DNA of 63,434 nt, the filler included, from Folioceros fuciformis (Eukaryota): the NCBI GenBank assembly GCA_049999805.1. It is 22 parts of 22 records of this genome, joined end to end, with 100 filler letters (N's around TTAATTAATTAA, not from the genome) between each part and the next. Parts side by side here need not be neighbours in the genome. Positions count along the whole stretch, not along the records: positions 13,850 to 18,556 come from JBNGIO010000653.1; 21 more parts are not named here. The stretch is one strand, 5' to 3'. Position 1 is the first letter of the stretch; each line of letters starts with the position of its first letter. Below are positions 853 to 61,016 of the stretch, in pieces. The notes beneath the pieces are model-generated. The model had not been told where the DNA came from. It saw only the letters and a list, made by a program, of their open reading frames with translations, and did not search any database. Position numbers and translations under genes: made by a program.

Positions 853-1540
853 AATTAGCTCGTACCGCTTCATCACCTCCTGTCGTTTCGTAGAGAAGGA
901 GCTTGGGAAAAATCCAGGGAAGTAGCGTGGCCCACTGGGGTGAGCGGAGCAATGAGGATGATGGTGAAAGGAACCATGGTGAGAACATCTCTTGCTGTGC
1001 ATCGAACAGTTTGCACTTCTCTAGGCTTCAGAGTAGTTCTTGTCACAGCTGCCCAGAAAAGGCGGCCAGCATACGATAGGTCTCCACCAAGAAGCCGAAG
1101 TCCTCGCCTGTAGAAGGATGCCCCTTCGCTGAACTTCAATCGAGCCTCCGCTATGGAGAGCTGCATACGCTGAGCAAAGGGTATGGATGGTTCCTCCACA
1201 ATGCCCAGCCTATTCTTAAGGTCCAATATGTCAGCCACTAGATCCTCCAGCTCTTCATCCTGAATCATTCCAGCCTAGCTGCTGTCGATAGCAAGCCGAA
1301 GCTTGGACAGATCCGCATCCAGGAGACCAAACTCTGCCACCAGAGGCTCTCCTCCTCGTTAGTCCGCACGTCATCCGAAATCTGCATGACGTCTTCCGCG
1401 AGATACATGTATATGAGCAGCATCTCCAGTTGCAGAGTCCTGACAGCCAGTATCTTCCTCAGCTCATTCACCTCGTCATCTAAGCCCCAAATCTCCATAG
1501 CAACCCGAGTGCGCTGCAACACATTCTTCTGCCTCAACCT
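845..1540 (-). pseudogene. LETM1-like domain protein fragment, fused in frame to the CCT5 fragment
   Basis: [56 protein letters not shown] / [16 protein letters not shown] resembles the C-terminal LETM1-like domain of plant/algal proteins. Frameshifts and a small deletion are present; no introns are visible. Confidence 0.7.
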
Positions 1541-2849: not shown

Positions 2850-5500
2850 TACCAGATACGGGTTAAGGAAGGGGATGAGCACAAGACAGCATTCAAAACC
2901 CGCCATGGCCACTATGAGTGGGTGGTGATGCCCAGGGGGCTCACCAACGCACCAACAACCTTCCAGTGCCTGATGCAGGACATCCTCCGGCCGTTGTTGG
3001 GGCAGGGCGTAGAAGTGTTCCTCGACGACATCCTAATCCGTTCTGTAGATGTAGAGACCCACATAAACCTGGTTAGAGCTGTTCTATTACTCCTACAAAA
3101 GCACCACATGTTAGCCAAGAGGAGCAAGTGCACCTTCATGTGCAAGGAAGTGGACTACCTAGGACACATCGTCACGAGGGATGGCATCAGGATGGACCCC
3201 CGCAAGGTCCAGGCAGTCACAGCATGGCCATTACCCACAGACATCACCCAGCTCAGAGGGTTCCTGGGACTTGCAGGATTCTACGGCCAGTTTATCCAGG
3301 GGTTCAGTAAGATTGCTTTACCCCTGACCGACGCCTTGAAACAGCCCCCCAGCAAATCTTTCAATTTGGATGCAGCAGCACAACTAGCCTTCACCCAATT
3401 GAAACAGGCTCTGAGCTCAAGGCCGGTTTTGGAGGTGGCAGATCCCAAGGGGATCTATCATGTGCACACAGATGCACCAGATCTCGCCCTTGGGGCTGTT
3501 CCGTCCCAGGAGGGACGGGCGATTGCCTACGAGTCCCACAAGCTCCAGGGAGCACAAGTTAATTACCCAATTCATGACAAAGAAATGCTTGGCATCATCC
3601 ATGCACTCAAGGTTTGGAGACATTACCTACTAGGACAGAGGTTCACAATGCACACGGATCACCATTCCCTCCATCACTTCTTCACCCAACCCAACTTGAA
3701 TGCACAACAGCGGAGGTGGTCAGAATACTCAGCTGATTTTAACTTTGAGATTAAGTACATCACTAGAGCCTCTAACTTGGTAGCAAATGCCCTCAGCAGG
3801 CAAGCTCTCACTCTGATGACCTCTCAACTAGATACCATCAGGCTCGTCCGAACAGCCATCCCAGGAGATCCACACTTGCAACACATCAACCAGCAGTTAG
3901 TACAAGACACAGCAGAAGGCATTCCCACAGCTTTCATGCAGACTTACCAACTCAAAGACGCTTGTGTTTACAAGAAGGGTCAACTAGTGATTCCTCAACA
4001 GCTGAAGGAGACCCAGAGAGGGATCCTGCATGATCTACACGACTCTCCCATCTATGGACACCTAGGTATCGACAAAACCTATGATCGGGTGAAAACCCAT
4101 TTCCACTGGGAGGGCCTGCGAAATGATTGCATATAGTGGGTCAGAAGTTGCACCTCCTGTCAACAGACAAAACCAGAGCATCAGAAAACACTAGGGTTGT
4201 TGTTACCTTTACAAGTACCTGACGGAAGATTCCAGTCCACCTCCATGGACTTTGTGACTACCCTTCCCCGCACTCGTACAGGAAAGGACAGCATATGGGT
4301 GGTTATGGACAGAATGTCTAAGTGCTGCCATTTCATTCCAGTAAATTCCAACGTTACAGCTCCACGAGTGGCCAACATATTCACAAAGGAGATCTTTAGG
4401 CTTCACGGGTGCCCCCAGAATATTGTCTTAGACCGGGACCCCAAGTTTATAGCAGGGTTCTGGCGATCCTTCACCGAAACCCTGGGCATCCAATAGAGCT
4501 TGTCCTCCACATGCCACCTCGAGTCAGATGGTCAGACAGAGCATCAAATCCAAGTGCTTGAAGACATGCTGCGGCATTACACACAAGACAAGCAAGGCAA
4601 GTGGGAGGAACTCTTACCCCTCCTCAAGTTTGCCTACAATAGCTCCAAGCACGCTGCCACAGGAGTATCCCCCTTCAAATTGCTATATGGCGAGAATCCA
4701 CCACCACCCGGACTCTGGCCAGCTAGCGAAGCCAAGTGGAGAAGTGCAGCCGAGGTTGCAGAGGTCATATGGCATGAGGTCCACAAGGCCAAGCAGAATC
4801 TCCTGTCAGCTCAAGACCGGGCCAAGAAATCGAGCAACAAGCACAGGCGGGAAATCTCCTACAGCATCGGACAACTGGTGTGGTTGTGAATCCACCCTCA
4901 CAGGTATCCATCACTTCTCCAGCAAAAACACAAGTTGGCGTATCGATTTGCAGGACCCTTCAAGATCTTGTGCAAGGTCAATGAAGTTGCCTACACACTA
5001 GAGCTAGAGCTGCCTACCGAACGGCGCATGTGTCACACCTTCCATGTGAGTATGATGAAGGTAGTGATCTAGAGACCTGCCCAACTCAACCCGCCGCCAC
5101 CTGCAGACCCCGCCACTCAAGACAGTCTGGAAGCCCTAGCCGCCACAGACAGTCTTGCTACTCCACCAGCGCAGGACGTCTCTCCAAGCTCTCCCACGAC
5201 AACCAACCCGACCACTAGACCCCCGGTATCAGTTACACCCCCTCACCTAGAAAGCACGACACGGAAGCGGAACAGATCAGCCCGCCATCCCTAGCTCGAC
5301 GACCTTGTCCAGCCCGACAGAATCCTGGAGGTACGCACCTGTCACCTCAGAAACCGATCTGTCCGTGATTACCTAGTTGGATGGAGCCAGGAACCAGACT
5401 CTTCTGCCACTTGGGAGCCAGAAGATGTCTGCAGACGAATTCCCCACCTTAGCCAGCAGCTGGAGGCCCTGGAGGACCAGGCCTCTTGCAGTGGGGGAGA
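2850..5500 (+). mobile_element. Ty3/gypsy chromovirus pol (RT-RNaseH-integrase-chromodomain), decayed
   Basis: KTAFKTRHGHYEWVVMP, VFLDDILI, RNase H HTDA..AYESHKL, integrase HDSPIYGH..C..C, SMDFVT, DRDPKF, DGQTE, GPF motif, then chromodomain-like PDRILEVR..YLVGW..ATWEPE (about 5310-5425). Contains in-frame stops. PPT GTGGGGGAGAA precedes TGTTAC at 5502. Confidence 0.93.
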
Positions 5501-5648: not shown

Positions 5649-5991
5649 TCTGAAACCAGGCACCATTCACACGTCACAAACCCTCCGCAACACATGCAGC
5701 CCTTGCCGCCATTGCCATTGCCATTGCGCTCTTGTCTTGCCTGCTGATGCGCAGGAGCAGATTGGAGGTTGCCGAGGCCTCCCCGAACGTAGGATGCGCG
5801 CAAGGATCCTCCGGGCGGAAGCGCAGCTCCAGAAAGTTGCCCTCAGACTCTCTAGCCTTTGCAAGAGCTTCGCGTCCCCCGAGCGTCTCCACAGCCCGCG
5901 CCACCGAGCTCGGGTAGCCAGGGTAGTGCACCGCGAACAGCTTCTGCGCCGGCAACACACCGCTCACGCAGCCGTCCTCCACCACGCCCAT
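5649..5991 (-). pseudogene. GTF3C5: TFIIIC subunit 5 (Tau95/GTF3C5) N-terminal fragment, gene 5' end or pseudogene
   Basis: MGVVEDGCVSGVLP..FAVHYPGYPSSVARAVETLGG..LELRFRPEDPCAHPTFGE..LLLRIS matches the plant Tau95 N-terminus. Similarity seems to continue past an in-frame TGA (AEGL*RVNGAWF); the contig then ends. Confidence 0.8.
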
Positions 5992-7210
5992 GGTGAACAC
6001 CTTCCCGCACGCTCCACGTACACGCCGGCTCCTTTCCCCGCCTCCTGGATTCACCTCTACGCAATCCACATGCAGGGACACCATTACACACAACGTCAGC
6101 GTCTCCACTTCTCATTGCTCCCAGCTGCCCGCCTCAATTCATGCATATCCATAGCCCATCCAGCCTCGAGCTAGCGCGTATCAGCCGGGAGGTGCTATCG
6201 ATCCTCCGGGCTTTGTCCACGGGCGGAACCATGAAAGCATTCATCTTCTTACCAGATTGATCATATTTCCCGTACGTGCGAGGACCCTGACTGCAAAGAC
6301 AAGGCACAAGCCAGGTCCCGCCTCACCCTCGACGGCGCGCGTGTCATTTAGGTGCCTACATAAGCTTCCCCAAGTGCCATGACGTCTCGACTACAAAAGT
6401 CCGTCCCATTCGACTCTTCCATGGGTTTCTTCTTACCATGCCCAGTGGATTCTAATAGTAAAGATGGCCACGTCATTATCAGAGATGATAAAAACTGTTT
6501 ACCCCTTAAAATAAAGATGATTATAGTAGAGTTTTATTTTTCTCATAAAATTATCTGAATAAACAAAGAGATTTTATTATTAAAAAATAAATCCTTATCC
6601 TATATTTAAAAATAATATTATCTAGATCAAGTAAGAGCAATCCATATTATGAATACCAATATAAACAACCTCCACTGTTTTTCTAAATGCTAAGGCATAG
6701 TTATGTATCACATGTCAAAGAGATTGGACAAAGGAGGATTCCTCTTTGTAGGGTTTTAACCTAGGGTCTCTTCAAGCATATACCCTTAACGACTGCTTTA
6801 GTGAGTTGTTGACTTTGAGGCCTACCCCAAAGCAATCAATGTTGTCATAGATACCACTAACATCTTACAAGTTCATAGAGTTTGCAAAATCCTCTTCACT
6901 TTTCCTCCATCCTTGAAGCACAAAATAATGCACTCACAATGCACTAAAGACATGAAGTTGAAGGGTACCGAGGGACCTCACCCCCCTAGTAGGATTGGGG
7001 CCCTTTCATTTAAGAAGGACCTCAGCTCTTTGCATTTAGTTTAGCAACTAAGGCCTTGCATGGCAAACCCCTTGCATTCAACAAGGGCCTCAACCCTGCA
7101 ACAAGGCAAAGCATAAACAAAGAGTGTACTTTGGAAGGATTTAGGGTTCACCAAAATTGCAACCATAATAAAAGTGTTGTCTTCCTTCTTTAGCTACATC
7201 AATTCAACTT

Positions 7211-10895: not shown

Positions 10896-12174
10896 TCCTC
10901 CAAGTGTTCCAAATGTGACTCAAAGTCCACACTGTGCACAAGGACGTCATCTATGTTGCACAATAGGTTGACTGACCCAGCCAAAACTATGTTCATAACC
11001 CTCTGGAAGGTGACTGGAGCATTCTTGAAGCCAAACAACATCACGAGCCACTCCCACAGTTGCTGTGATCCGTAAAAGGCTGTCTTTTTTATGTCCTCCG
11101 GTGCCACTGGCACTTGGTTGAACCCTTGCCTTAGATCCAGTATGGAGAAGTAGACAGATCTGCTGATGTTGTCAAAGATCTCCTCCGGTGTAGGCATAGG
11201 GTACCTGTCCTAGGGTGTCATGGTGCTGATAGGGCGATAATCGCCACACATTCTCTTCTCCGTCCATAAGCCATGGCTATCCTTCTTGGGTGGCATGATA
11301 GTCGCAGCAACGTAATCAAAACTGGAAGGTCTGATTAGCCCTACCTCACATAATTCCTTGCACCTCGCATCCACCATCTCCCACTCAGATTGACTCAGCC
11401 AATACCTTCTACAATATATGGGCTCCGGGCTTGTGAGGTTAATCCTAAAGATTGTGACGTTGCAGCGTTTCAACTCCTTCATGGAGAACGCGAAGCAATC
11501 ACTGTACTTGAGAATCAATGCCCGAATCTGCCTCTGTTGTTCATCAGTGAGCTGTGGTCCCATGTGCCAGTTGAACGTTTCAGCAATGAGTGGCACCTTG
11601 GTTGATGGCTCTTGCCTCACATCCACCTTGAAGGTCGATGCAGAAAAAACAGAGTGGTGCCAAGCAGCATACTCCCCCCCTCTTGCATCGAGCCTGAAAG
11701 GTAGGCAAGGATAGCCAAGGAAAGGTAGGTGCACTGCATCTGCTGGACAAGCCATGGCTACAAGGCCTGCAAGGGTGCCTCTGGTTAGCAGTTGGAAAGC
11801 CAAGCATAAACTCGCAAGCTAAGTGATGGCGTGCAAGTCCATAGCTCGACCGATAGCAACACAGCGCTGAGAGACTGTAACCTGCAGTGCTGCCGTGGCA
11901 TGTGCTGGAAAGCCCATGATCTGCTCACGCTCCTCAACGTGGGGCTCTTCCCATTCCTTTGTGGTGGTGTTGTATAGCAATCCGTGATAGGCAAAGGAGC
12001 CAGGAAAGCTCACCAGGGCAGGCAATGTTTTGCGAGGCTGACTAGGTGTGTTGATTGGATGCTAGGGTGGTCGCTCACTAACAACCACAGGCCTGGGTTC
12101 ATGATCTGCATCCAACACATCTTGCAGCTGCAAGGTGGGATCCCGCTTCGTATTGCGAAGCACGAGTGCCAAGA
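10896..12174 (-). mobile_element. Ty3 pol fragment: C-terminal half of a C5 DNA methyltransferase in frame with RT
   Basis: One frame (ORFs starting 12025, 11803, 11197) broken only by stops: ..EEPHVEEREQIMGFP..QRCVAIGRAMD (motifs IX/X-like), linker, then RT KKD..WTEKRMCGDYRP..DRYPMPTPEEIFD..LDLRQGFNQ..KTAF..FGFKNAP..NIDDVLV. Confidence 0.85.
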
Positions 12175-12649: not shown

Positions 12650-13749
12650 ACCTACCATGGGCACTTGCCCAGAAACTTACCTTCCACATGCCTCCCTTCG
12701 AACTATTCTGAACAAGAAGAAACCAAGTTAGACTTTCCTAGACCGATTACCAAACTTTTCCTTTCCACACCTTGTCCCTCCTATTTCCACATGCATATGG
12801 ATAGTCAGGTTAAGCACACGGTCCCCATTCACATAGAAGCCGAGAACATGAGTTTCCTCATCCAGATGCTGTAATACAATCTGGCCTCCTGCTGCAGATG
12901 AGGTACTTACCCCCTCCTCCGGTGGGCTACCTCGAACTGCCCGTCTTCTGCTCTCCAGGGGTACTGGGGAATCTTCTACCCCTCCGCCCGCCGCTGTTGT
13001 CAGTCCTGTCCTCCTAGCACGAGTCGCCATCTCCGCTCTTCCGGTTGCGGGCTCCATGATCGTCGTTGCTTCCTCTACCCAGTAGGGCTGTCCTCTATTG
13101 GCATGGGTTCCATCTGACCGGTAGCAGCTTCGGCTACCTCAATCACAGATCGGTTGTTCCGTCTAGCCTTCCCTTTCCCTTTTACCCGGCTTCGGGCCTC
13201 ATCCTATTCCTGTTTATATCGGTCTGCCAGCTTATGGACCTTCTCCACTGCAGCCGCCTCCTGCTCATGTGCCCTCAACAATTCCTGTTGCATTTCCTGG
13301 TTAGCCTCATGGACTGCCTTGACCTGGGTCAGAAGTAGCTCTTGCTAATCCTTCATGGCCTGTATTTCTTCCCAAGCCCGGCGTATTTCCTCCTACGCCT
13401 ATTCCTTCGCTTCACACAAGGCTTGCTGAGCTTCCTCCAGTTGCCTCTGCCTCGCTTCTGCTTTCGTCAGCTTGGCCTGCACCTCCTCCTCTTTCTTCCC
13501 TTGCATGCTCAGCCAAGTCACCGCCCGTGCAGCTTGGTCCAGCATGTCTGCCTGTGCCCAGACCATGGCCGCTGTCAGGCTTGGTAAATCCACCTATTGG
13601 GGTGTGTCTCTAGTAGCCATTCCTCTATCCAAGATTCCCCTTCCCAGCAGTGTGCGCACCCTAGCCAGATCCTCCTCCTGCAATCTCGCCACCAAGGGAG
13701 TGGCCCTGAAAAGCTCCTCCCACCCCGGGAAGTGTTCTTCCCCTGGGGT
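12650..13749 (-). mobile_element. Diverged copy of the retrotransposon accessory ORF-X (C-terminal half), decayed
   Basis: DLPSLTAAMVWAQADMLDQAARAVTWLSMQ and GSPPEEGVSTS..GQIVLQ..VLGFYVNGDRVLNL..GGTR align with the copies at 25421-27228, 38281-40844, 47754-49885 and 50689-52262. Confidence 0.8.
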
Positions 13750-13849: not shown

Positions 13850-14620
13850 CACACCATCCCCTCCTAGCCTGAAGGCATAAGATTGCGGTGTGCTCATTAG
13901 AGTTGGCCATGCCCTTCTGGCTTCTCCTACTCAATTCACAAGATAAAATGGCAACTTGTCCATCCGCTTCACCTGTTGTGAGCACCTGTCCAACTCAAGG
14001 ATGTCGTCCACGACCTTCTCCTACGAAATCATCAAATTCCTATGTTGCCTAAGCACCTCTAATCTAGCCACATTTGTCCAATAACTGCGAAGCTTGTGTG
14101 CATATGAGCCACACTACACTGCGTTCATGATTAACTCGTTGCCGAACCATGACCGAATCTCCTCATACAGAGACCTGACAGCTGGACGTTTGTCCATGGC
14201 TGCACACACATTCACCAAAATGTACCAGCATCGTGGATTCGCAATCTCGACTTCTCGCACAATTTGTGCAAGCTCAGCAGCCAACAAAATGCCTTCACCT
14301 TTGTCTTTGCTTGTTGTCGAAAATGTCTTGCATTCCCATCCTAGGACCAATATATCCACCGGACTCAACAAGGCTTCTAGCTGCTGCTTGCCCACCAGGT
14401 TCATGTCTGTGGGCAGCCTGCTATGGCAACCTCAAACTACTTCCTCGCTCAACAGCATTGGGTACTGCTTACAAGACCTAAGAATTTGGCTGCTAGCCAC
14501 AGCCCGAGCCTTCTCGTCCTTCTCCACGTAGGTACATTTGCGTACCTTGACGCCACACTACAACACCGCTTCCAGGCCACTACCGATTCCTAAGTAGAGC
14601 TCCAACAGATGGATGCCTTC
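13850..14620 (-). mobile_element. C5 cytosine methyltransferase domain (motifs I-VIII plus variable region) inside a Ty3 polyprotein, decayed
   Basis: Single frame with stops: GIHLLELYLGIGSGLEAVL (I), YVEKD (II), VDILVLGWECKTFS (IV), WYILVNV (VI, ENV with one substitution), NAV*CGSYAHKLRSYWTN (VIII). Same frame as the upstream protease. Confidence 0.85.
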
Positions 14621-17162
14621 AGCACCCACCTTCCATCATACTAGAGCATCATTGATGCGTTGATCTTCTGCCTTGGCAGGCCTCACATTTGGGATCAACC
14701 TCTCAAGACATGTGTCTATAAGATTCCACAGTCAATTCTCCTTCCTTCCCTGGTTTTTTCGAACCCTAGCTTCATCCAAATACTCTGAACGCACAACCTT
14801 CAGCACACACTTCTGCTCTCTTGGCTTCAGCATGTCCAGAGAGGATAACTCTTGCGTTTCCTCCCACACCTCATGTTGATGCTCACTCTGAGCATTGTGG
14901 GCAATCACGGCGCTACCTGTCATTCTTATCCTGCTCTTCCCACCACTCCTGTTCATCCTTAGGGGAATTCATGCAACATGCGTGAAATCTCCTCTCCACC
15001 AGAAGGGTCTGTAGAAGGCTTCTGCGTGCAAGGGATCAACTCCCATAGCAGGACAATGAGTTCCAGCCGACCCTAGCAAGACATCATATGTCTTTGCACT
15101 GGTGACCAAACATCTCACTTTAACAATGCTGGCGTCCTTCGTGCCAGGCTTCAACTCAATCTTCACGGGCTTCCTCGTCATTCCCAGCACCTGTTCCTTG
15201 GTGCTTGTAGAGGTGGTGATGTTCACATCGCTCAGAACGAGCTTGTGCGCTTCAGTGCTTCCTGCCCTCGTGCTCCCTATATCTACTAGGACGTTTACTG
15301 GAGCATAACCATCAAAGTTATGTGCCTCCTAGTGTTATCAATGATGGCAACACCTCCTTCACCTCGCTCCTCTAGCATTAGGTGATCTCCACACAACTTG
15401 GCCATGCGAGGAACAGATCCTACGGATTCAAGCTCCTTCCTCAACCATTCTCACATGATGTTCTTGAAGTTGTTGCCCTTCACACCCGGATCCATGATAC
15501 TTACTGTAGGCACCTCCATGGCCTTGTCCAGCAACACCTCAATGTCTCGACCTGGTCTTGACACCTTCTGTGTTGTGGAGTCCTCTTCGGCCTGGCAGAA
15601 ACTCTCCGGCATCTTGGTCAATTCCCGCTCTAGCACTTCCTTCGTAGTGACGCCTTCACGAAAGTCCACAACAACCTTTTTCTTCTTCTTTTGCACTACC
15701 ATCATGCCAAATGCCCCATCTTCATCAGAGTCAGAGAACAAAATTTTTTTGCCCTGCATTCGGGTGATGAGGAGCACTCCCCGAGCAAAGTCCAGAGGGC
15801 TAGACTCAGGGCCGGTCTTTTTCTCTCCCGAGTGCGGTACACATGCTTTGTAAGTACGTAGGCAGGGGTCCCCTTAGTATTGTAAGAGACCATCACTATT
15901 AATCAGAATCCTTTTCTTCACGAAAAAAATAAAATAAAAAATTTGCCCTGTCCTGCTGGCCATGTTGGCCATCTCCTTCTTGAGCTACTCCACCTGCTCG
16001 AGAAGAGCCTTGCGACTTGGGCGCTTGCTCTTCTCCTTCTCAGCAGATGCAAGCTTGGGCTTCAGCTCTGGGTGAGCTTCCCAACACGCTGCCTCCATGT
16101 GACCCCATCCGCCACAAGACTTATAAGCTTCCTTGCTCTTCGGACTACCTGGCTTGTAGTCGCACTCAAACACCTTGTGCACTCCACGGCATTTGCCACA
16201 CTTCACAGCTGCTTGGCCTGCATTATTAGCTGGCCTCTCCTTCGGCACATGTGGCTGCTTGCCATGTCCTGAGGACTGTGCCTACTCTCGATACTGGTGT
16301 CTTGGGACAAACCTAGAATTCCCGTGTCCTCCAGACCCGTGGTGCAAAGGGGTCTTCACGACTCCGTGATCCTCCAAGTAAGCCTGGCTTACTGCATCAC
16401 CTTTGAGCATCTTCTCAACAATCTGGTAAGCTTCTATCAACTAGTACTTCTCTCCCATCACTCCATGTAGCGAGTCCATCACCTTCCTTCTCTCTGCCTA
16501 GCAGGCAATGCTCCCTTGAAGATCTCGGTGGCCTCCCTCATTGTCTTGACACCCGTGTCTTCTACCGGAACCTTCAATATGAGGTAAGACGCATGCGATG
16601 TCTGGTTAGGCTGAAAGAAAAGCTCGATAGTTCTTGGACCTTTTCCAGCGAAGCTATAGGAAACATGATGGTTAGCTTGGTGAACATCAAGTCCATTAGA
16701 TGCTTGAGCTTTTCTTCGTCAGTGGGGGTGTTCTCAAACCAGCCTTCTTGGCTGCCTCGTGCACTGCCTTTCTTCTCTCGGCCACCTTTAGGATCTCAGC
16801 CTTCTCATCTCTGTAATACATCAAAGCCTCATCATCATGAATGCCATCCTCTGAGTGAACTCATCCTTGTATTTCATCTTGCTTTCTGTCATTGCCCAAC
16901 GGAACTTCTCCTCGAAATCTGCAAGAGATATGCTTCCATGTTTTCCTATGAAGACATCGTTCTTACTTGGTGTGAACTCAAGCTCCATTTTTGTGGACTC
17001 TCTGCTCCAATCCCTGAATTGTCTCCTTGTGACTTGTGCGTCGTCTCTGTGTTGTTCCGGTGTCCTCTTGAATGGTGAGTAGTAGACGTCGTGCACTTCT
17101 GCGACTGAGGACGGTGCAGGTGTCCTCTCGTTAGTCCACCTTGACCTCAGGAATACCATCAA
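14621..17162 (-). mobile_element. gag (two zinc knuckles), aspartic protease and linker of the DNMT-bearing Ty3 element
   Basis: CGKCRGVHKVFEC and (C>Y)KSCGGWGHMEAAC near 16085-16200. Protease VLVDIGS (DTG with ACA>ATA) near 15280 and YDVLLG near 15080. Confidence 0.75.
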
Positions 17163-18056
17163 TGGTTACCTCTCTTATGAATGACAACTAAGTTGCTTGT
17201 AATCAATGGCAGAATTCCTATCCATTAGAAAATATCAGCCTATGACTTAGCACTGTCTTCTGCAACACCCAACCTTCTTGGGTCGCAGCTGTCTCTTGGG
17301 TTTGATGGTGGACGACTTTCACCTCTTCCTCCAATCTCCAGCGCGCCACAGTCTGCTCCAGTACCGTATCCTTGTTCCCAACAAGGTGGATTGCTGATGT
17401 GGTGAAATCAAGATGGAAAATTCTCCCAACTTGGCAATGCAACAGACCACAAGAACCTCCAGGAGACAAAGACACAGCAGGGACGAAGTATGGCTATCTA
17501 TTAGAATAAGATAAACATCAACAATCTGAGAATCCATGGCTGGGTAGCCCACATATATAGGCAAAATCCCTAAGAACTCTCCATGAAGTGCCTCCTCGCA
17601 CGGATGGTGGGCACTTTATAATCTTACTTCTCCTTGGTTGGCCTTTGGTCTATTACCAAATAATAAACAACTAAACAGCCTACTTTGTCCTTTTCTTATT
17701 TTATCATTTTTATATTTGTTTTAGAATATCTCCGCAATGGTTCACATGTGCCTTGGCGTTGCTCCTCACATGCATCCAACACACATGGTTCACATCCACC
17801 ATGACACATACATTCTCTCTCTAAGCATGTCACATGCATCCTTCATCTTCACATGCACACATGCATACATGGCACACACCCATGCATACATGTCATGTGT
17901 AGGCCATCCATGGGCCATTTACATGGCATCATCAAGCACTTTAACATCAAGCTTGTGCCCAAGATGCTCTAGTCCGTATCCAATCATAGAGTCTCAGGTG
18001 CTCTATTCTTCATATAGCAACACCATGACATATCCCCTTTAAAGTGAGGGTAACCA
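17163..18056 (-). mobile_element. Putative 5' LTR (894 bp) of the DNMT-bearing element
   Basis: Bounded by the inverted termini TGGTTACC...GGTAACCA. CCTATATATG TATA-like box on the minus strand near 17555. No TSD; the gag-like ORF starts immediately downstream. Confidence 0.65.
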
Positions 18057-18187
18057 TTTGGTGCTTTTTCGAAACTTGCTTGCTTACTGCCGATCGTTGG
18101 GACGGCCCTGTTGGTGGCTACAGGGGAGGAGTGGTGAAGACAAATGCAACGTTGGCGCCCCCCACAAAAGCCAACATATATTCTTTC

Positions 18188-18401
18188 AGTGCGATTATGC
18201 GCAAGGTGTGTGGAGTGAAATTGGCAAGTAGATTTAAATGCTCCTCCCCGAGCGTAATCTCATGGTCACAGAGCAAACAGCCCTATTCGGGCTAGTGCGA
18301 TTATGCACAAGGTGTCTGGAGTGAAGTTGGCAGTTAGATTTAGAGGCTCCTCCCTAAACGCAACCTCATGGTCACAGAGCAAATAGCCCTATTCGGGCTA
18401 G
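18188..18401 (+). repeat. About 106-bp tandem duplication
   Basis: AGTGCGATTATGC.CAAGGTGT..TCATGGTCACAGAGCAAA.AGCCCTATTCGGGCTAG occurs twice. Confidence 0.85.
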
Positions 18402-19157
18402 ACAATGCTTGGAGAGGGCCATTGCTCTAGAGTCAATGGTGGAGGGTGGTGTGGTCCTTCTCACTCTTTTCCCTTTGGCTGAACGAGATGTCGATGGTTT
18501 ATGGAGAGAGAGACCAGGTGTCAAGTAAGCTCTGCTATGGCATATCTGGGAACAGGNNNNNNNNNNNNNNNNNNNNNNNNNNNNNNNNNNNNNNNNNNNN
18601 TTAATTAATTAANNNNNNNNNNNNNNNNNNNNNNNNNNNNNNNNNNNNNNNNNNNNCGGGCTGGCGCACTAGAGCCCCTGAGCGGGGCGCCCTGGCTGGC
18701 CTGGCCGGCAGCGGAACAGCATGGCGTCCCTGGCCAGACTGGTGCCCCGACGGGTGCCCTCGCAAGCACCTTGGCAGGTGCCTCCCCCTGGCCGGGGCAT
18801 GGCATGCACCCCCTGGGGGGTTGGCGGGATGGCCGCCTGAGCCCACCTGCGCCCTACAGTCTCGGCGTCCCCCGGCACCTTGCCCCGGGGCCTGGCGGCG
18901 CCCTCCTAGTGCCCTGGCGGCCTGTCCGCTGCAGCTACCCACGCCCTCCGACACCCTTCTGCGCCCGTTCTCGGGTAGCACCCCGAGCTGCGGGGTGGCA
19001 CAGCGGCACCCTCCTCAATGCTCATCAGTGTTCCTCGTTGTTAGGCTGTGCACACCGCCATGTGCGCGAACAAGGTAACAGCGCCCTGACCAGGCTTCGC
19101 AGCCCACTCCTGCATACCACACGCCTTGTTGCTCCACAAACCAAGCTCCACAACCTA

Positions 19158-20310: not shown

Positions 20311-20362
20311 ACATGGCCGTTGAGAAGGGGAAGCTCAGGATACCGCCGGCTGTTCAGCTCCC

Positions 20363-20909
20363 TGTGGAGGCAAAACCCCGGGCACTGATTGCCGACAAGT
20401 TCCACCTTTAGTGGCCACACTTATCCCACTGTCGTTGAGACATTGGGTTTCGTTCCCACCAAGGAGCGATGGGGTTCCTTGCTGCTGTGGATGGAGGGTC
20501 CGACTTGATCGACTCGATGATGGATTCGAGGGCTCCCCTCCAGCTCTGATTAGGCGTAGGACAGGCCTCGCTGTCCGGTGGTCAGCTGCACCTCTCTCGG
20601 TGCCCACAAACTCACTCCAGTCACTACAACGACTCTAACCTCTCAGATCTGCGACTTCCTTCACACACTTCACTCACTCTCTCACTCCAGCACCAACACC
20701 AACAACTACCAGCAACCAGCAACAACACCACTACCTTCTACACTTCCCTACAGACTCCTCCTACCCGGCAAGAGTCACTAGACTAACCCCAAACAAAAGG
20801 AAGAAGGGAACACACTCCCCTCTTGGGTATCTCCTCCCCACAACCTTACCAGACGCCATGAGACATGGCCGGCCTACAGCACTTGACCAAGCAAGGAACA
20901 AGAGTGGAC
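20363..20909 (-). mobile_element. LTR family A copy
   Basis: Starts TGTGGAGGCAAAACCCCGGG; near-identical to the other copies. Confidence 0.9.
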
Positions 20910-22199: not shown

Positions 22200-22370
22200 C
22201 TTATGGTACGAGAGAATGGATTCTTATCTCAAGAAGTTGGGGTTCATCCAAGGTGAAGCAAATACTAACATCTATGTACTTCGTTAGGATAGCTCACTTG
22301 TACTTGTTGCCCTATATGTCGATGACTTAGTCATTCCAGGCAATAATGTTGATTTGGTCAACAAGATAAA
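22200..22370 (+). mobile_element. Ty1/copia RT fragment
   Basis: WYERMDSYLKKLGF..IYV..ALYVDDLVI. Confidence 0.8.
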
Positions 22371-23232
22371 ATGGTGCACACACATAAGAGAGCTCTGAGA
22401 AAATATTGCTTGGTAATTGATAAAATGAGTGGGATAGAATGTTACCTTTCCTTACAATGGTTTATAGGATGAGTAGACAAGTGTCTTTGGGGAAAGTTTT
22501 CACCTTACATGTTATTGTTTGGATGAAGGCCACATTTGTCTAGGATGGCAGCAAACAAGGTGGACACTGTTGTGAAGTTGGATGACCCCAATCAATGGTT
22601 AAAGATAATCAGGCATAGAGCAGAGTTGTTTAAGAGGGTTATGCCTATGGCGATGGATAACTTGTTGATAGCTCAACATAGGGATGAGTTGAGATATAGG
22701 AAAACAAGGAGTGGTCATTTCAAACCTAAAATGAAATTTGAAATAGGGGATTATGTGTACTTGCAGAGAAAGACGTTGACAACTATTGACACAAGTGCTA
22801 GTTGGATAATATTGAGGGTGAGGAGTGTGAAGCCAAATGGAGTCTTGGAGCTTGAAGGGAGGGATGGTACAACTTGTTTGGAACACATGAAAAACTGTGC
22901 ACTGTGTCATTTGCCTCACTTGAACCGGGCGATTAATGTTCAAGCTTTCATACCAAGGGATTTGCTTATACGGGATGTGGAGATCCGAGTAGTAATCAAT
23001 GCATGTTGTTATGTGATAGATGCAATGATGGATGGCACATCCTCTATTTGGAACCGCCATTAGAGGCGATGCTTGATGGACAGTGGTTTTGTCCAATGTG
23101 TGTGACAATTGATACATTGTAAGAAGAACATTATATTTTGATTGAGGTAGATTGAGGATGATGTGTGTAATACATTTTATGAGCATTTTTGTTTTGCCAA
23201 CAAAAGTTGGGCAGTAAATTAAGGGGGGGAGG
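22371..23232 (+). mobile_element. Ty3 integrase C-terminus with a PHD finger, followed by a PPT
   Basis: KRALRKYCL, FSPY.LLFG, NLLIAQHRDELRY..FEIGDYVYL..LRV..GVLELEGRDG..NCALCHLP. An alternative frame at 23003-23105 gives MLLCDRCNDGWHILYLEPPLEAMLDGQWFCPMC (PHD). PPT AAGGGGGGGAGG precedes TGGTGACCCT at 23233. Confidence 0.85.
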
Positions 23233-23425: not shown

Positions 23426-24130
23426 CACATATCCAGCAGCCAACACAGCCTCTAAACTAGATGCAATCCCAGCAAACAGCTCAACCATGACCAATCCATA
23501 CACAGATGAACTCAAAGTTACAAGTCTATTACAAATAGGTTAAAGTTTACAAATTGCTTCCATTGTACAAGGTTGAATCTTATGATCTAGCTAAAACTCA
23601 GTCTGTCATTTTTCAAGCTCTCTAAGAATTTCAGCTAATGCTCTACCAATACTTGCTCTCATTGAATCCTCCTCCAGTTTGATGTTACTACACTCTTTAA
23701 AGCACAACTTACACATATGACTCATAATCCACAATCTATCCTCTTCATCTTGTCCTTCTAGGGAAGTCGCCATATTTACTATGCATGCATCTTGCCCATC
23801 CTCTTGCAACTGCAACTTGAGCGGAATTGTTGTAAAGTTCATCCCATCTCATTGTCGCCAACTTGCACGATATTAAAACTCCTTTGTCCACAAATCCACC
23901 CCTCCTTCTGGCATAAGCAAGCTTCTGTTCCTAAGATAACATCAAAGTTTCCAGATTTAACAATTAAACACTTTATACCAATTGTAGTCTCTTCCTTTGT
24001 GCAAGGCTGAAGACATACTTGCAGTTTTCCTTAGTCTCCCCCATCATTGCCTTCAGACCCCCATTGGCCATTCTAATTTTCCATCTTGTTTCTTGTATAT
24101 CTCCTCTTCTCAGCCCTAGGAATGACTATG
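23426..24130 (-). mobile_element. Third DNMT-bearing Ty3 fragment: protease C-terminus, linker and DNMT motif I
   Basis: LQPCTKEETTIGIKCLIVKSGNFDVILG..GVDLWTKEF*YRASW aligns with the protease at 14969-15226. GLVMVELFAGIASSLEAVLAAG (23497-23432) is in frame with ORF 23606..23842. Confidence 0.78.
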
Positions 24131-24314: not shown

Positions 24315-27228
24315 GGCGACGGTCGCCTGACGGTCTACCGCTCGTGGGTCCCACTCTCTCTCTCTCTCTCTCTCATTCCCCTCTCTCTAGGGTTTTCTCT
24401 CCCACCGGGTCGTTCCTACCCGACTGATTACCTCCTGCCCGCGCATCCCCTTTGGCACTTCCCTTCCTTGGTTCACCACAAAACTGCCTCACTCACCTCA
24501 GAAACAAGCGCACGCACACATGAACAGCAGCAATCTATTAAACGCCTTCCACCCGCATGATCTCACACCTTAGATACACCCCTGCGGTCTCAATTCAGCT
24601 TCTTCACAGCCTCTCCAGTCTCATCGCGACCAGTCACACATACACACCACGTCTCGTTGCACCCCACACACATTACCCACCTCGCCTCCGGGATTTCCCC
24701 GGCTTTGTTCTCTCTTACCCCACTCACTAGTTCGCTGTATACATTCTGCCCGTCTTAATAGTCGTCGAATCACTTCCACTCCACTTCACTCCCTGCTCCA
24801 CTCCTTCTGGCTTCCTTTTCGCATTCGCTCTTACCCACTACTCGGCCACTTGCTCCTCCCCCTTCTCACATACGCGCACTCTCACGCTCTCCTTTCTCCG
24901 GTTCTTTAGTCTTCTTTCTCAGCGATGCCCCTCCTGGGCTCCTATTAACGTTGAGGAATGGTGAGGTACCGGGGCTAAGGGAAGAGGAGTCCCTTCCACT
25001 CCGCACTCGCGGATTCGGCTCTGACACCCGCACCACCCCACGTGACCACCTCGAGGATAGTTGGGGAGCTTCTCTCCCACTCGGCAAGGCTCCTCCTCCC
25101 GATTCGTCCTCGGGCTTGATCACGGAGTGCCCACCACCTACACCCGCACCCCAGGTTGCTACATGTGCTCGCTTGCCTAGACCTCCTGTCCAGCAACGGC
25201 CATCGCTAGGTCCCTGCAAGGTCGACTGTTCGGCTGGTTCTTGCTGATTTCTTAGGCCTTCAAATCGGCCTCTTGTACACGGTGATGGCGGTTTTTTTCC
25301 GCCATAAAGTCTGTCAGGCGGGGGAGCTGCGCTCTTAAATTCTGAGCGACTTAGGTCCAAATAAAGCACGCTAAAAAATCCTATTCTAGCCTGCATTTAC
25401 TATTGCCCTTTCCCACGCCGCTAGCGGCTTCCTCCTGGCCTTCGCGTGTCACCCCTTGCTGCCCCTCCTCTCGCTCTTCTGCCCCTCCGTTGGTCCGGCA
25501 GATCCTCCCAGAGGATCTCCACATCACTGCTGCTGCTGCTGGACCTAGAAGGAGGCGCAGGTGGGTCCCGCCGCTGTGGTCCACCACTCCTCCTCCTTCT
25601 CTGGTTGTTCAGGACAGCCACAAGCCCCCGTTCTACCCAGCGCTGGACCTCCTCTTCCGTCAGTTCCTCCAGAACTGCCTCCGCATAGCAGTGGGGTAGT
25701 CCTGTCACCCACCAGCTGTAGTGGTAGAGTCCCAGGCGCGTCCTCAACTGTAGGACGTAGCCCCGCGTTCCTCCTGTTGTTATATGTACATACAGAAACA
25801 GCTTCAGAACTCTGGCCCCTTCTACATACAGGCCTGGCACATAGGACGCCTCCTCCTCATACTGCAGCACAATCCGACCTTCTGTCATAACAGAGGTGCT
25901 TACCCCGTCCTCCCTTGGGCTACCTTGGGTTGCCTGCTCCCCCTCCTGCTGGGGTACCTGAAGGTTCTATGCCTGCCCAGCTGTTGCCTCCTCCGGCTCT
26001 ATCCTCCTGGTACGGGTCACCCTCCTGGAGCGCCTAGGGGCAGGCGCCCCTACTGCTTCCTCCTTTGTTTCCAGGGTTGGTTCTTCAGCTATCCAGGGCC
26101 TTGCTGGGCCACCAGTAGCCCCGTTGGCTACCCGACTATCGATAGTCCCGTGGACTACCGGACTACCGGTAGTCCCCTCGACTACCGTTCCTCTAGTTCG
26201 GCTACCGGTAACCCCTTCTGCTACCGGGGTCGCTGACTGACTCGGACGCCCAGCCTTGCTCTTCCCCTTCACTCTCTCTTTGGCCTCATCCCGCTCCCGC
26301 TTGTATCTGTCAGCCAACTTCTGAGCCTGCTCCACAGCGGCTATCTCCATCTCCTGTGCCCTTGCCATTTCCTGTTTCATCTCCAAGTTAGTCTCGTGAT
26401 CCTCCCTCACCTGAGCTAGGAGGGTCCCCTGTTGCCAGCACTTCAGCCCTCGCCTTGCGCGCCTCTTCCTCGGCTTGAGCCTTCTCCCTGTCCAGGACCC
26501 GCTGCTTCTCCTCCAGCAGTTGCCGCGCCATCTCCGACTCCGCTAGTTGCCTCCTTGCTTCAGCCTCTCGCTCACGAGCCTTCTCCTCCTTTCCCCAAGC
26601 CTCGGCCTCTCGCTCCGCTTGTACACTTAACCAGGTCAGGGCCCTAGCAGCCTGATCCAGGAGGATTGCTTGGGCCTGCACCATCGCAGCAATCAGCCCA
26701 GGTAGGTCCACTTCCTGCACCTCTCTAGTGTCCATTCCTCTCGCCGTGATTTGTCTGCCCAGGAATTCTCGCAACTTGTCCAGGTCCCCCACCTGCAACC
26801 TGTCTCTCTAAGGCCTGCACCTGAAAATGTCCTTCCACCTTGAGGAACCCTCATGTGCTGAAACGTGCCCTAACTTATCCTCCTGTCTGGAGGAAACTGT
26901 GTCGGCTGCCATCACCTGATCCGGTGGCTCCTCAGGTCTTGTCCCACCCTGACCTTGCTCCTCCAACCTTCGATCCTTGATTCCCTGGATAGCTAGTTCT
27001 CGTTCTGCCTCCTGCTGACCTATCTGCTCCAGGGTTGTCCCCCCTTCCTCCTGATCAGCCCCCATGCTCACACTTTGTCCTCTAGTCCTCTTCCTCCTGG
27101 CAGGAGTCTTCTTTTGTCGCACCATCCTCTTCATGGGCTTGACTGGGGTTTCCTCCTGCGAGCTATTCCCACTGTCAGCTTCCCAACTGCTAGAGGCAGC
27201 CCTTGCTGGCTCAGCGGGCTTCCACTTC
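24315..27228 (-). mobile_element. Athila-like element 3' region: ORF-X (25421-27228) and 3' UTR
   Basis: Coiled-coil, repeat and C-terminal domain match the other copies; interrupted at 27229 by LTR-A. Confidence 0.8.
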
Positions 27229-28151
27229 TGTGGAGGCAAAACCCCGGGCACTGATTGCCAACGGGTTCCACCTTTAGTGGCCACACTTATCCCACTGTCG
27301 TTGAGACATTGGGTTTCGTTCCCACGAAGGAGCGATGGGGTTCCTTGCTGCTGTGGATGGAGGGTCGGACTTGATCAACTCGATGATGGATTCGAGGGCT
27401 CCCCTCCAGCTCTGATCAGGCGTAGGACAGGCCTTGCTGTCCGGCGGTCAGCTGCACCTCTCTCGGTGCCCACCAACTCACTCTTGTCACTACAACGACC
27501 CTAACCTCTCAGATCTGTGACTTCCCTCACTCACTTCACTCACTCTCTTACTCCAGCACCAACACCAACAACTACCAGCAACCAGCAACGACACCACTAC
27601 CTTCTACACTTCCCTACGGACTCCTCCTACCCGGCAAGAGTCACTAGACTAACTCCAAACAAAAGGACGAAGGGAACACACTCCCCTCTTGGGTATCTCC
27701 TCCCCACAACCTTACCAGACGCCATGAGACATGGCCGGCCTACAACACTTGACCAAGCAAGGAACAAGAGTGGACAGGTCGAGAGGAAGACACACCCTTT
27801 ATAATCAAGAGCTAGGGGCAAGCCCCTTCACCCTGGTCATTACACCTTGTGATCCTACCAGACACTATACAACTGGCAACACGCTGCCCGCGATCCTACC
27901 AGACACTGTACAGCCGGCAACACGCTGCCTGCGATCCTACCAGACACTGCACAGCCGGCAACACACGGCTTGCGATCCTACCAGACGTTGCACAGCCGGC
28001 AACACACTGCAGGTCCTAAACCAAGCAGGGACAGACCACAAGAGCTCAAGAAGCGAGGACCTCCAAGAGCTCACAAAGAGATAGACTGACTCCCAAAAGT
28101 GAATGACTCCCTCCTCCTACAGGCTCACCTGATCTTATAGGAGCCTCTCTC
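27229..28151 (-). mobile_element. LTR family A copy inserted in ORF-X
   Basis: The insertion splits the (V)KWKP codons that are intact at 39006 and 51542. Confidence 0.9.
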
Positions 28152-60943: not shown

Positions 60944-61016
60944 GCTCCCGTGGCCTAATGGATAAGGCATCTGACTTCTAATCAGGGGATTGCGGGTTCG
61001 AGTCCCGCCGGGGGTG
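60944..61016 (+). tRNA. tRNA-Arg (anticodon TCT)
   Basis: 73-nt cloverleaf: GCTCCCG/CGGGGGT acceptor, GCCT/AGGC D stem, TCTGA-CTTCTAA-TCAGG anticodon arm, GCGGG-TTCGAGT-CCCGC T arm. No strong T-run immediately downstream. Confidence 0.93.

What the first reader, a model, noticed from the sequence alone, without database searches (positions are those of the whole stretch)
13850..18056. Ty3 LTR retrotransposon with a C5 cytosine methyltransferase in its polyprotein (LTR-gag-PR-DNMT)
Seen: on the minus strand a putative 894-bp LTR, gag with two zinc knuckles, and a protease. About 150 codons later, in the same frame, come DNMT motifs in canonical order: LLELYLGIG (I), YVEKD (II), DILVLGWEC (IV), YIL[E>V]NV (VI), GSYAHKLRSYWTN (VIII). 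Stops split the domain, so the ORF track shows only a 96-aa piece. Known: retrotransposon-borne DNMTs have been reported in dinoflagellates and charophyte algae such as Klebsormidium; they are not a standard part of land-plant Ty3 lineages. Inference: the element methylated its own cDNA or its insertion site. If the host is an embryophyte, this would extend the known range.
Basis: partly seen in the sequence, partly recalled or inferred. Interest (0 to 1): 0.92.

Follow-up and report, generated by a model that had tools for sequence, protein, structure and literature searches.

The report
Dead Gypsy retrotransposon carrying a Dnmt3 domain
This is a broken copy of a jumping gene that carries its own DNA-methylating enzyme domain, a kind already described in freshwater green algae related to land plants; here it is abundant in an unidentified plant-lineage host.

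Summary
On the minus strand of contig 13850-18556 lie a candidate 894-bp LTR, a frameshifted gag, an aspartic protease and, in the same frame, a Dnmt3-like C5 methyltransferase domain cut by 6 stops.

Pfam does not recognise the window copy. HMMER links it to 564 cluster representatives, best E 9.9e-36. 17 of the 20 aligned rows, the window copy being one of the three misses, pass PF00145. A family profile hits DNMT3A at 2.6e-23.

An intact relative, P0012, reads gag-PR-DNMT-RT-RNaseH-INT. A second, diverged fragment in contig 10896-12174 supplies the DNMT C-terminus joined to RT.

All named relatives come from Klebsormidium nitens, host of the published KnitGypsy-Dnmt3 (PMC5890265), and from Closterium. 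So this is a new member of a known kind.

The copy is dead: 13 stops in PR-DNMT, ENV changed to VNV, gag in three frames. The family is high-copy in the host's runs.

The host is an unnamed streptophyte. Whether it is a land plant could not be settled, and that decides the residual novelty. Function in this lineage is untested.

The parts
17163..18056 (-). Candidate 5' LTR, 894 bp, TG...CA with 8-bp terminal inverted repeat TGGTTACC/GGTAACCA
   Evidence: Inverted-repeat ends found at exactly these places. Summed contig depth in bins 17304-17931 is 495-1638 (X1), over 1000 in three of the four bins, against about 420-650 in most bins of the body and 17-43 in the flank 18246-18556 (the tool warns that depth is not a copy number). 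No second LTR lies in the contig, so LTR status is inferred.
17145..17158 (-). Primer-binding-site-like stretch TGGTATTCCTGAGG, 4 nt after the LTR end
   Evidence: Read. Only the first 6 nt match my recalled tRNA-iMet-type PBS. Not tested against any tRNA.
15985..17165 (-). gag remnant spread over three frames (frameshifts and stops), with two degenerate CCHC-like knuckles at 16200-16162 and 16116-16084
   Evidence: ORFs and translations. No Pfam family at E<=1 in any of the three frames. No tblastn match to the gag of ten relatives.
15745..15952 (-). 208-bp A/T-rich segment between gag and PR that is specific to this copy
   Evidence: High-depth contigs in X1, X2 and X4 join 15744 to 15953 with 13 other letters in between (tables 5 and 5c).
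14969..15328 (-). Aspartic protease domain; active site reads D-I-G-S (15283-15272) instead of D-T/S-G
   Evidence: tblastn with P0010 residues 1021-1156, E 4.8e-11, and with Closterium P0014 residues 498-590, E 1.7e-7. BLASTP alignment to the P0012 protease from residue 797.
13850..14635 (-). Dnmt3-like C5-MTase domain, motifs I to VIII plus the start of the target-recognition region; 6 in-frame stops; cut off by the contig end
   Evidence: phmmer best E 9.9e-36. tblastn with P0012 residues 968-1223, E 4.9e-31. Profile A1 against DNMT3A, 2.6e-23. Motif coordinates. No direct Pfam hit.
11777..12172 (-). Second, diverged copy (contig 4): C-terminal part of the DNMT domain (LPALVSFPGSFAY, EEREQIMGFP, RCVAIGRAMD)
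   Evidence: BLASTP to P0012 residues 1166-1542, E 3e-64. tblastn with Closterium P0379 residues 728-1112, E 1.1e-67. Only 27% identical to contig 6 over the 48 overlapping residues.
10896..11620 (-). Reverse transcriptase following that DNMT C-terminus in the same frame (contig 4)
   Evidence: Pfam RVT_1, 9e-15, 55.4 bits. Alignment to the P0012 reverse transcriptase.

Best explanation
Contig 13850-18556 holds, on the minus strand, a decayed copy of a Ty3/gypsy LTR retrotransposon, cut off at the contig end. Its Pol polyprotein carries a Dnmt3-type C5 cytosine methyltransferase domain between the protease and the reverse transcriptase. It belongs to the same kind as the Gypsy-DNMT3 elements of Klebsormidium nitens and to unnamed polyproteins of Closterium.

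Shown here: homology, domain order, Dnmt3 affinity, the decay of this copy, and high contig depth of the family in the host's runs.

Inferred from the published family, not shown here: in intact elements the domain is translated as part of Gag-Pol, sits next to RT in the particle, and methylates the newly made cDNA or the insertion site.

This copy is inactive. It appears to be a target of host CG/CHG methylation and to be decaying by C-to-T deamination.
For: - **One reading frame** runs from PR through the DNMT motifs, with 13 stops and no frameshift.
- **Homologues.** 564 representatives at E<=1e-3. 17 of the 20 rows of alignment A1 (the window copy plus 19 relatives) pass PF00145; the window copy is one of the three that do not.
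- **Intact architecture.** P0012 has zf-CCHC 530-547, Asp_protease 796-888, DNA_methylase 978-1226, RVT_1 1421-1575, then RNase H and integrase.
- **Same order in named algae.** K. nitens P0064 (zf-CCHC 297, PR 598-691, DNMT 833-971) and Closterium P0014.
- **Second copy.** Contig 4 gives the DNMT C-terminus followed by RT.
- **Dnmt3 affinity.** The family profile hits DNMT3A/3B/3C at 2.6e-23 to about 1e-20, DRM at 9e-18 to 4e-14, and M.HhaI at 4e-10. No chain named DNMT1 or chromomethylase is among the 55 listed.
- **Independent bridge.** A high-depth contig (X2, 1377 bp, depth 611.9) spans gag, PR and the DNMT start, 16102 to 14561. Contigs identical to the window copy have depth 8-11.
- **Decay signature.** CpG o/e 0.46, TpG 1.36, CpA 1.35. 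Against sibling contigs in X1, the window has T or A where they have C or G at 261 places, and the reverse at 149. Transitions are 410 of 529 changes.
Against: - The window copy itself gives no PF00145 hit and no PDB hit.
- Best identity to any relative is only 34-37%. In the tree it sits on a long branch (1.38) with weak support (73) for its nearest clade.
- The LTR is not proven, because there is no second copy. gag has no detectable homology to relatives.
- RT, RNase H and integrase of this very copy are not in the contig. The full order is inferred from contig 4, a different lineage, and from relatives.
- No enzymatic activity has been shown for any Gypsy-DNMT3. The K. nitens domain was negative or inconclusive in yeast (PMC5890265, section 10).
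Confidence: 0.9

Rival explanations
1. In this lineage the domain is not a working methyltransferase. It would be a DNA- or chromatin-binding pseudo-enzyme kept for targeting. The Pro-Cys catalytic dipeptide is replaced by Glu-Cys in many members.
For: Motif IV reads ECQ in 71 of the 150 best representatives, PCQ in 45, no match in 16 and other letters in 18. The window has ECK and Closterium ECQ. The K. nitens domain showed no activity in yeast.
Against: The catalytic Cys, ENV (124 of 150) and the HRxR motif (73 HRLR and 18 HRVR of 150) are kept in most relatives, as expected for an enzyme under selection. The yeast result is called inconclusive by its authors, because human DNMT3B also failed. 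SymbioDIRS-Dnmt3 domains do methylate CG.
Confidence: 0.2
2. The arrangement is a one-off capture or nested insertion of a host DNMT3 pseudogene into a Ty3 element, or an assembly chimera of two unrelated repeats.
For: The contig comes from a fragmented assembly of short contigs. The window copy has no direct Pfam hit.
Against: The same PR-DNMT-RT order is seen in P0012, in Closterium P0379 and in K. nitens P0064/P0295. PR and DNMT share one frame. Independent contigs of X1, X2 and X4 bridge gag-PR-DNMT. A second diverged copy joins DNMT to RT.
Confidence: 0.03
3. The motifs resemble a DNMT by chance and there is no methyltransferase homology.
For: No direct PF00145 hit and no PDB hit for the window sequence.
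Against: phmmer E 9.9e-36 to P0005, which scores 63.7 bits on PF00145 against a cut-off of 22. Profile A1 against DNMT3A, 2.6e-23.
Confidence: 0.01

Closest known systems
KnitGypsy-Dnmt3 of Klebsormidium nitens (de Mendoza et al. 2018, PMC5890265; I read sections 6, 9, 10 and 11)
   Same: A Ty3/gypsy element with a non-rearranged Dnmt3-type domain inside Pol. K. nitens proteins are direct homologues: P0064 (KFL_013780020) at E 9.7e-22 to the window, and P0295, P0319 and P0321. The order is the same, zf-CCHC, protease, DNA_methylase.
   Different: Only 29-31% identity. K. nitens copies read PCQ in motif IV where the window reads ECK. P0064 falls in another clade of the domain tree. The paper's figure legend describes a DIRS-like repeat arrangement; the window shows one candidate LTR with inverted-repeat ends, so the two cannot be compared. 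I could not see whether the paper's own copies are exactly these proteins, because figures and supplements were not available.
Unnamed polyproteins of Closterium spp. (GJP34393.1 of NIES-68; CAI5973665.1 of NIES-65; CAI7855100.1 of NIES-53; CAI7850249.1 of NIES-54)
   Same: These are the best-scoring named relatives, ranks 7, 10 and 11 (names). They have the ECQ motif IV and PR-DNMT-RT order. P0379 matches contig 6 at 6.9e-29 and contig 4 at 1.1e-67. The window groups weakly (73) with their clade.
   Different: 32-34% identity. The Closterium copies are open reading frames and the window copy is dead. I found no paper describing them: a search for 'Closterium, DNMT3, retrotransposon' returned 0 papers.
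SymbioDIRS-Dnmt3 and SymbioLINE-Dnmt of Symbiodinium (PMC5890265)
   Same: Retrotransposon-encoded C5-MTases. SymbioDIRS carries a Dnmt3-type domain in Pol and methylates CG de novo in yeast.
   Different: These are DIRS (tyrosine recombinase) and LINE backbones in dinoflagellates, from an independent acquisition according to the paper.
Cellular DNMT3A/3B/3C and plant DRM2
   Same: Same catalytic fold family. The profile hits them at 2.6e-23 and 4e-14. They share the AHR.R.(Y/F)W.N form of motif VIII and the (L/I)GR... form of motif X (alignment).
   Different: The window and its aligned relatives show no PWWP, ADD or UBA companion domains. Motifs run in the collinear order I-IV-VI-VIII-IX-X, not rearranged as in DRM. 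The domain is embedded in a retroelement polyprotein.
RT-RNaseH-DNMT-integrase-PHD gypsy polyproteins from metagenomes (P0008, P0020, P0288, L004)
   Same: The DNMT domain is homologous.
   Different: The domain sits between RNase H and integrase, and a C-terminal PHD finger is present. This second architecture is not the window's.

Membership tests
Ty3/gypsy LTR retrotransposon | Two long terminal repeats flanking the body | tested here: inconclusive
   One candidate LTR with an 8-bp inverted-repeat end and 2-3 fold higher summed depth than the body. No second copy in the contig or the window.
Ty3/gypsy LTR retrotransposon | gag with a CCHC zinc knuckle | tested here: inconclusive
   Two non-canonical remnants (translation). 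zf-CCHC does not hit at E<=1. Relatives P0012, P0064 and P0014 do hit it.
Ty3/gypsy LTR retrotransposon | Retropepsin-type aspartic protease | tested here: met
   tblastn to the protease regions of P0010 (4.8e-11) and P0014 (1.7e-7). The active site has degenerated to D-I-G-S.
Ty3/gypsy LTR retrotransposon | RT-RNase H before integrase, with a Ty3-type RT | tested here: inconclusive
   Not present in this contig. Contig 4, another lineage, has RVT_1 at 9e-15 directly after the DNMT C-terminus. Relatives have RT, RNase H and integrase in that order.
C-5 cytosine DNA methyltransferase (PF00145) | Significant match to the family model | tested here: not met
   No family at E<=10 for P0001 and none at E<=0.01 for P0004. 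The test is met only transitively: 17 of the 20 aligned rows (19 of them relatives) pass it, and profile A1 hits solved DNMTs.
C-5 cytosine DNA methyltransferase (PF00145) | Motif I (FxGxG) AdoMet site | tested here: met
   Y-L-G-I-G at 14608-14576 aligns with LFGGxxAG of the relatives.
C-5 cytosine DNA methyltransferase (PF00145) | Motif IV Pro-Cys catalytic dipeptide | tested here: inconclusive
   The Cys is present, but the motif reads ECK. The family is split between ECQ (71 of 150) and PCQ (45 of 150).
C-5 cytosine DNA methyltransferase (PF00145) | Motif VI ENV glutamate | tested here: not met
   The window reads VNV. 124 of 150 relatives have an ENx match. This copy is therefore catalytically dead even apart from its stops.
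C-5 cytosine DNA methyltransferase (PF00145) | Motifs IX and X | tested here: inconclusive
   They lie beyond the contig end in this copy. They are present in the contig-4 copy (EEREQIMGFP, IGRAMD), aligned to P0012.
Dnmt3 class | Closer to DNMT3 than to other DNMT classes, with motifs not rearranged | tested here: met
   Ranking of PDB profile hits: DNMT3A/B/C first, then DRM, then bacterial enzymes; DNMT2 at 1e-3; no DNMT1. Motif order is collinear. No tree with cellular DNMT classes was built, because no such sequences were at hand.
Gypsy-DNMT3 of streptophytes (KnitGypsy-Dnmt3 kind) | Dnmt3 domain inside the Pol of a gypsy element, homologous to the K. nitens copies | tested here: met
   K. 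nitens P0064 at E 9.7e-22. Same domain order. It falls in a different clade of the domain tree, so this is the same kind but not the same family in the narrow sense.

The most novel reading that the evidence does not exclude
The host is a land plant rather than a charophyte alga. Gypsy-DNMT3 elements would then have persisted into embryophytes as a high-copy, diversified family (at least two lineages only 27% identical in the overlap). They would belong to a large unexplored clade whose catalytic loop reads Glu-Cys-Gln instead of Pro-Cys-Gln.

Evidence bearing on the host:
- The intronless polyol-transporter ORF (57577-59253, minus strand) has only embryophytes among its named best hits, at 52-64% identity. 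No Klebsormidium, Chara or Closterium protein appears among the 120 listed.
- In an unrooted tree it sits beside lycophyte and fern sequences with 87-89 support, at distances like those among land plants.
- On the other side, every named host of the DNMT family is a streptophyte alga, and no algal transporter was available as an outgroup.
Probability: 0.4. Interest if true: 0.55.

Novelty: new member of a known kind. Interest (0 to 1): 0.35.

Why it matters
Retrotransposons that carry the very enzyme class their hosts use to silence them are a rare, recently recognised twist in the conflict between transposons and hosts. This finding does not establish a new kind.

It does show that the Gypsy-DNMT3 kind is far larger than the single K. 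nitens family in print:
- 564 cluster representatives at 50% identity;
- two domain architectures;
- several Closterium species as hosts;
- a widespread Glu-Cys variant of the catalytic loop.

It also shows that an unidentified streptophyte host carries the family at high copy. If that host is a land plant, the kind would cross the alga-to-land boundary.

The same sample seems to include a conversion-type (bisulfite-like) library. Host methylation of a DNMT-bearing element family could therefore be read directly.

Tried and rejected
- **Direct Pfam and PDB searches.** Pfam found no family in the window translation and the PDB search gave no hit.
- **Whole genome.** None is held for this window.
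- **Copies inside the window.** blastn found no nucleotide-level copies of contig 6. tblastx found only one weak PR-like match, in contig 8.
- **Earlier scan notes.** None for this genome or for P0012; one loosely related diatom note.
- **Naming the host.**
  - Sequencing-run names are coded.
  - Rfam and ARAGORN gave only a U2 snRNA and tRNA-Arg.
  - A plant snRNA upstream element recalled from memory is absent near the U2 gene.
  - The transporter tree is unrooted and lacks algal sequences.
- **ESM Atlas.** For relative P0005 it returned DNA_methylase clusters, with phage and Streptophyta taxa only.
- **Metagenome loci.** L001-L005 gave no LTR pair; L002 and L004 have no direct repeat of 80 nt or more.
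- **Expression.** No RNA holder is listed. X4 is only guessed to be RNA. Its contigs match at 80-90% likeness and one of 1669 bp runs from the DNMT region beyond the contig end, but this does not show transcription.
- **Structure prediction.** Not run, because the sequence evidence was already decisive.
- **Intact sibling copies in the host.** Could not be read, because the variant table is truncated (818 rows not shown).
- **Paper supplements.** Those of PMC5890265 (motif alignment, Ka/Ks, element structures) were closed. They may bear on how close the window is to the published copies.
Full report
**What the window is.** The 63,434-base window is not one stretch of genome. It is 22 contigs of 1.1-5.1 kb joined by N44-TTAATTAATTAA-N44 linkers. 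The finding lies wholly in contig 6 (13850-18556, 4707 bp). No whole genome is held for it. Neighbouring contigs therefore say nothing about genomic context.

**Checking the observation.**
- On the minus strand, the frame that ends at 13850 has 13 stops in 534 codons. The other two minus-strand frames have 41 and 31.
- That frame contains the protease (VLVDIGSTRAG, 15292-15260).
  - LLELYLGIGSG at 14608-14576
  - YVEKD at 14530-14516
  - DILVLGWECKTFS at 14356-14318
  - YILVNV at 14224-14207
  - GSYAHKLRSYWTN at 14110-14072
- Six stops fall inside the 294-codon DNMT-like part.
- gag lies upstream in three different frames. Its two knuckle-like remnants are not canonical and are not recognised by Pfam.
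- The proposed LTR (18056-17163) does begin and end with an 8-bp inverted repeat, TGGTTACC/GGTAACCA, and is followed after 4 nt by TGGTAT.... There is no second LTR in the contig or the window.

**Is it a methyltransferase?**
- Directly, no model sees it. Pfam gives nothing at E<=10 and the PDB search gives no hit.
- An exhaustive phmmer search of the 294 residues against 1.84 billion cluster representatives found 564 proteins at E<=1e-3, 244 at E<=1e-10 and 6 at E<=1e-30. The best is P0005 at 9.9e-36 and 35% identity.
- These relatives are methyltransferases by Pfam's own threshold of 22 bits: P0005 scores 63.7, P0064 58.4, P0012 46.1 and P0010 45.5. In alignment A1, 17 of the 20 rows pass; the window copy is one of the three that do not.
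- A profile of that alignment hits DNMT3A at 2.6e-23. DNMT3B and 3C follow, then plant DRM (9e-18 to 4e-14), then M.HhaI (4e-10). No DNMT1 or chromomethylase chain is among the 55 listed.
- The family consensus has LFGG..AG, GW(E/P)CQDLS, ENV, GS.AHRLRNYWTN and, further on, ERE.A.G and R....G...D. Motif VIII and motif X have the DNMT3A form (alignment).
- The domain is therefore a Dnmt3-type C5-MTase with its motifs in the normal, non-rearranged order.

**Is it part of the retroelement?** Yes.
- P0012, a 2188-aa metagenomic protein, reads zf-CCHC 530-547, Asp_protease 796-888, DNA_methylase 978-1226, RVT_1 1421-1575, RNase H, then integrase.
- The window's PR-DNMT translation aligns to P0012 residues 797-1223 in one piece (E 5e-37).
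- Contig 4 (10896-12174, minus strand) carries the missing end. It has a DNMT C-terminus (LPALVSFPGSFAY, EEREQIMGFP, RCVAIGRAMD) running in frame into a reverse transcriptase (RVT_1 9e-15). It aligns to P0012 residues 1166-1542 (E 3e-64) and to Closterium P0379 residues 728-1112 (E 1.1e-67).
- Where contigs 4 and 6 overlap, they are only 27% identical over 48 residues. The host therefore holds at least two old lineages of such elements.

**Who else has it?**
- Most relatives are unnamed metagenome proteins.
- The named ones are Closterium sp. NIES-65, -68, -54 and -53, at ranks 7, 10 and 11 (names), and Klebsormidium nitens (KFL_013780020, KFL_014710010, KFL_017580010, KFL_000540020).
- No embryophyte name appears among the 97 proteins listed. 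Annotated plant proteomes usually mask transposons, so this absence is weak evidence.
- K. nitens P0064 and Closterium P0014 have the same zf-CCHC, protease, DNA_methylase order.
- K. nitens is the host of the published KnitGypsy-Dnmt3 (PMC5890265, section 9). Later papers cite 'streptophytes (Gypsy-DNMT3)' as a known class; I read passages of a 2025 MBE paper and a 2026 preprint.
- In a quick tree of 80 domain segments, the window copy sits on a long branch (1.38). It joins the P0012 plus Closterium clade weakly (73), away from K. nitens P0064.
- A second architecture also exists among relatives: RT, RNase H, DNMT, integrase, PHD (P0008, P0020, P0288, L004).

**State of this copy and of the family in the host.**
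- The copy is dead. It has 13 stops from PR to DNMT, ENV changed to VNV, ECQ changed to ECK, HRLR changed to HKLR, the protease D-T/S-G changed to D-I-G, and gag frameshifted.
- Its composition shows methylation-type decay: CpG o/e 0.46, TpG 1.36 and CpA 1.35.
- I laid the contigs of four coded runs on it:
  - Pieces identical to the window have depth 8-11.
  - Pieces about 88-90% alike have depth 411-640. They bridge gag, PR and the start of the DNMT domain (X2 record 9, 16102 to 14561).
  - The candidate LTR reaches 1000-2100 in several bins. The upstream flank falls to 17-53.
  - The tool warns that summed depth is not a copy number. I read this only as showing that the family is highly repeated and that the LTR is more repeated than the body.
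  - Against those siblings (X1), the window has T or A where they have C or G at 261 places, and the reverse at 149. Transitions make up 410 of 529 differences.
  - A run of another study with the same species label (X4) also holds family contigs. The family therefore belongs to the organism and not to one sample.

**An incidental lead.**
- Run X3, from the same sample as X1 and X2, shows a one-sided excess of G>A (295, against 41 C>T). At those places X1 and X2 mostly show none.
- All 17 listed X3-only positions are CHH cytosines of the minus strand. None of the 9 CG and 11 CHG cytosines in the same intervals is listed. The hypergeometric chance is 5e-4, but the list is truncated and selected.
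- This looks like a bisulfite or enzymatic conversion library in which CG and CHG sites of the family are protected, that is, methylated. This is an inference; the library type is not on record.

**Mechanism.**
- *Shown:* the domain is encoded in frame between PR and RT in a large family. Most members keep the catalytic Cys, ENV and HRxR.
- *Inferred from the literature:* it is made as part of Gag-Pol, and it methylates cDNA or the integration site. The published proposals are avoiding recognition as foreign DNA, protecting cDNA from editing, or self-limiting transposition (PMC5890265, Discussion).
- *Not shown for any Gypsy-DNMT3:* activity. The K. nitens domain gave no methylation in yeast. 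The authors call this inconclusive because human DNMT3B also failed there.
- Motif IV reads Glu-Cys-Gln in 71 of the 150 best representatives and Pro-Cys-Gln in 45. This leaves room for a variant or non-catalytic role. I give that rival 0.2.

**The host.**
- The 558-codon polyol-transporter ORF (57577-59253, minus strand) has embryophytes as all its named best hits, at 52-64% identity. The closest are Ginkgo 64%, Sphagnum and Marchantia 61%, Diphasiastrum 58% and Selaginella 57%. One unnamed protein reaches 71%.
- In an unrooted tree it pairs with that unnamed protein next to a lycophyte and fern clade, with support 87-89.
- No algal transporter was at hand to root the tree. All named hosts of the DNMT family are streptophyte algae.
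- I put the chance of a land-plant host at about 0.4.

**Verdict.** The thing is a dead member of a kind known since 2018, so it is a new member of a known kind. Residual interest lies in the undescribed breadth of the family, the ECQ variant, the apparent high copy number, and the open question of the host.

Noticed in passing
whole window: The window is 22 contigs (1.1-5.1 kb) joined by N44-TTAATTAATTAA-N44 linkers, so adjacency between contigs is not genomic.
   Followed up: yes
window 13850-18556, run X3: Run X3, from the same sample as X1 and X2, shows 295 G>A against 41 C>T. All 17 listed X3-only positions are CHH cytosines, and none of the 9 CG or 11 CHG sites in the same intervals is listed. 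It looks like a bisulfite-type library, with CG and CHG methylation of this element family.
   Followed up: partly
relatives P0005-P0154: Motif IV of the retroelement Dnmt3 domains reads Glu-Cys-Gln in 71 of 150 representatives and Pro-Cys-Gln in 45. A Pro-to-Glu change in the catalytic loop is unusual for C5-MTases (this judgement is from my recall).
   Followed up: partly
P0008, P0020, P0288; L004 1400-7483: A second architecture occurs among homologues: RT, RNase H, DNMT, integrase, PHD finger. It resembles the earlier scan note e1-2850094 on a diatom element.
   Followed up: partly
window 22356-22898 (+) and 23899-24024 (-): Contig 8 matches the post-integrase C-terminus of the DNMT-bearing polyproteins P0012 and P0159 (E 4.6e-19). 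It also has a weak PR-like match on the other strand. It may be a third fragment of related elements.
   Followed up: no
window 189-1274 (-): TCP-1/CCT chaperonin coding sequence (Cpn60_TCP1, 1.4e-27) runs for about 280 codons without introns but with a frameshift near 630. It is preceded by an unrelated ORF with no Pfam family. It looks like a processed pseudogene or a captured fragment.
   Followed up: no
window 12728-13138, 25421-25966, 40242-40844, 47754-48569, 51705-52262: A repeated protein family (…FLYV..GGTRGY.LQLR.R.G.Y.Y.W.V.GLPHCY…) occurs in at least five contigs that are mostly G+C-rich. The two members I scanned have no Pfam family. It is probably an unclassified transposon protein.
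   Followed up: no
window 2574-3032, 20324-20638, 26808-27504: A repeat of roughly 300 bp, translating as …GGKTPGTDC..VPPLVATLIPLSLRHWVSFP…, recurs in contigs 2, 7 and 9, inserted in or beside other elements.
   Followed up: no
window 57170-57364 (-), 60944-61016 (+), 5674-6111 (-): Host genes: a U2 snRNA (86 bits) about 200 bp downstream of the intronless polyol-transporter ORF, tRNA-Arg(TCT), and a Tau95_N (TFIIIC subunit 5) exon.
   Followed up: no
window 18188-18399: Two tandem 106-bp units, 88% alike, lie just outside the candidate LTR. Each ends in a small hairpin followed by a T-rich tail. Other contigs match from 18144 rightwards, so this is a separate repeat.
   Followed up: no
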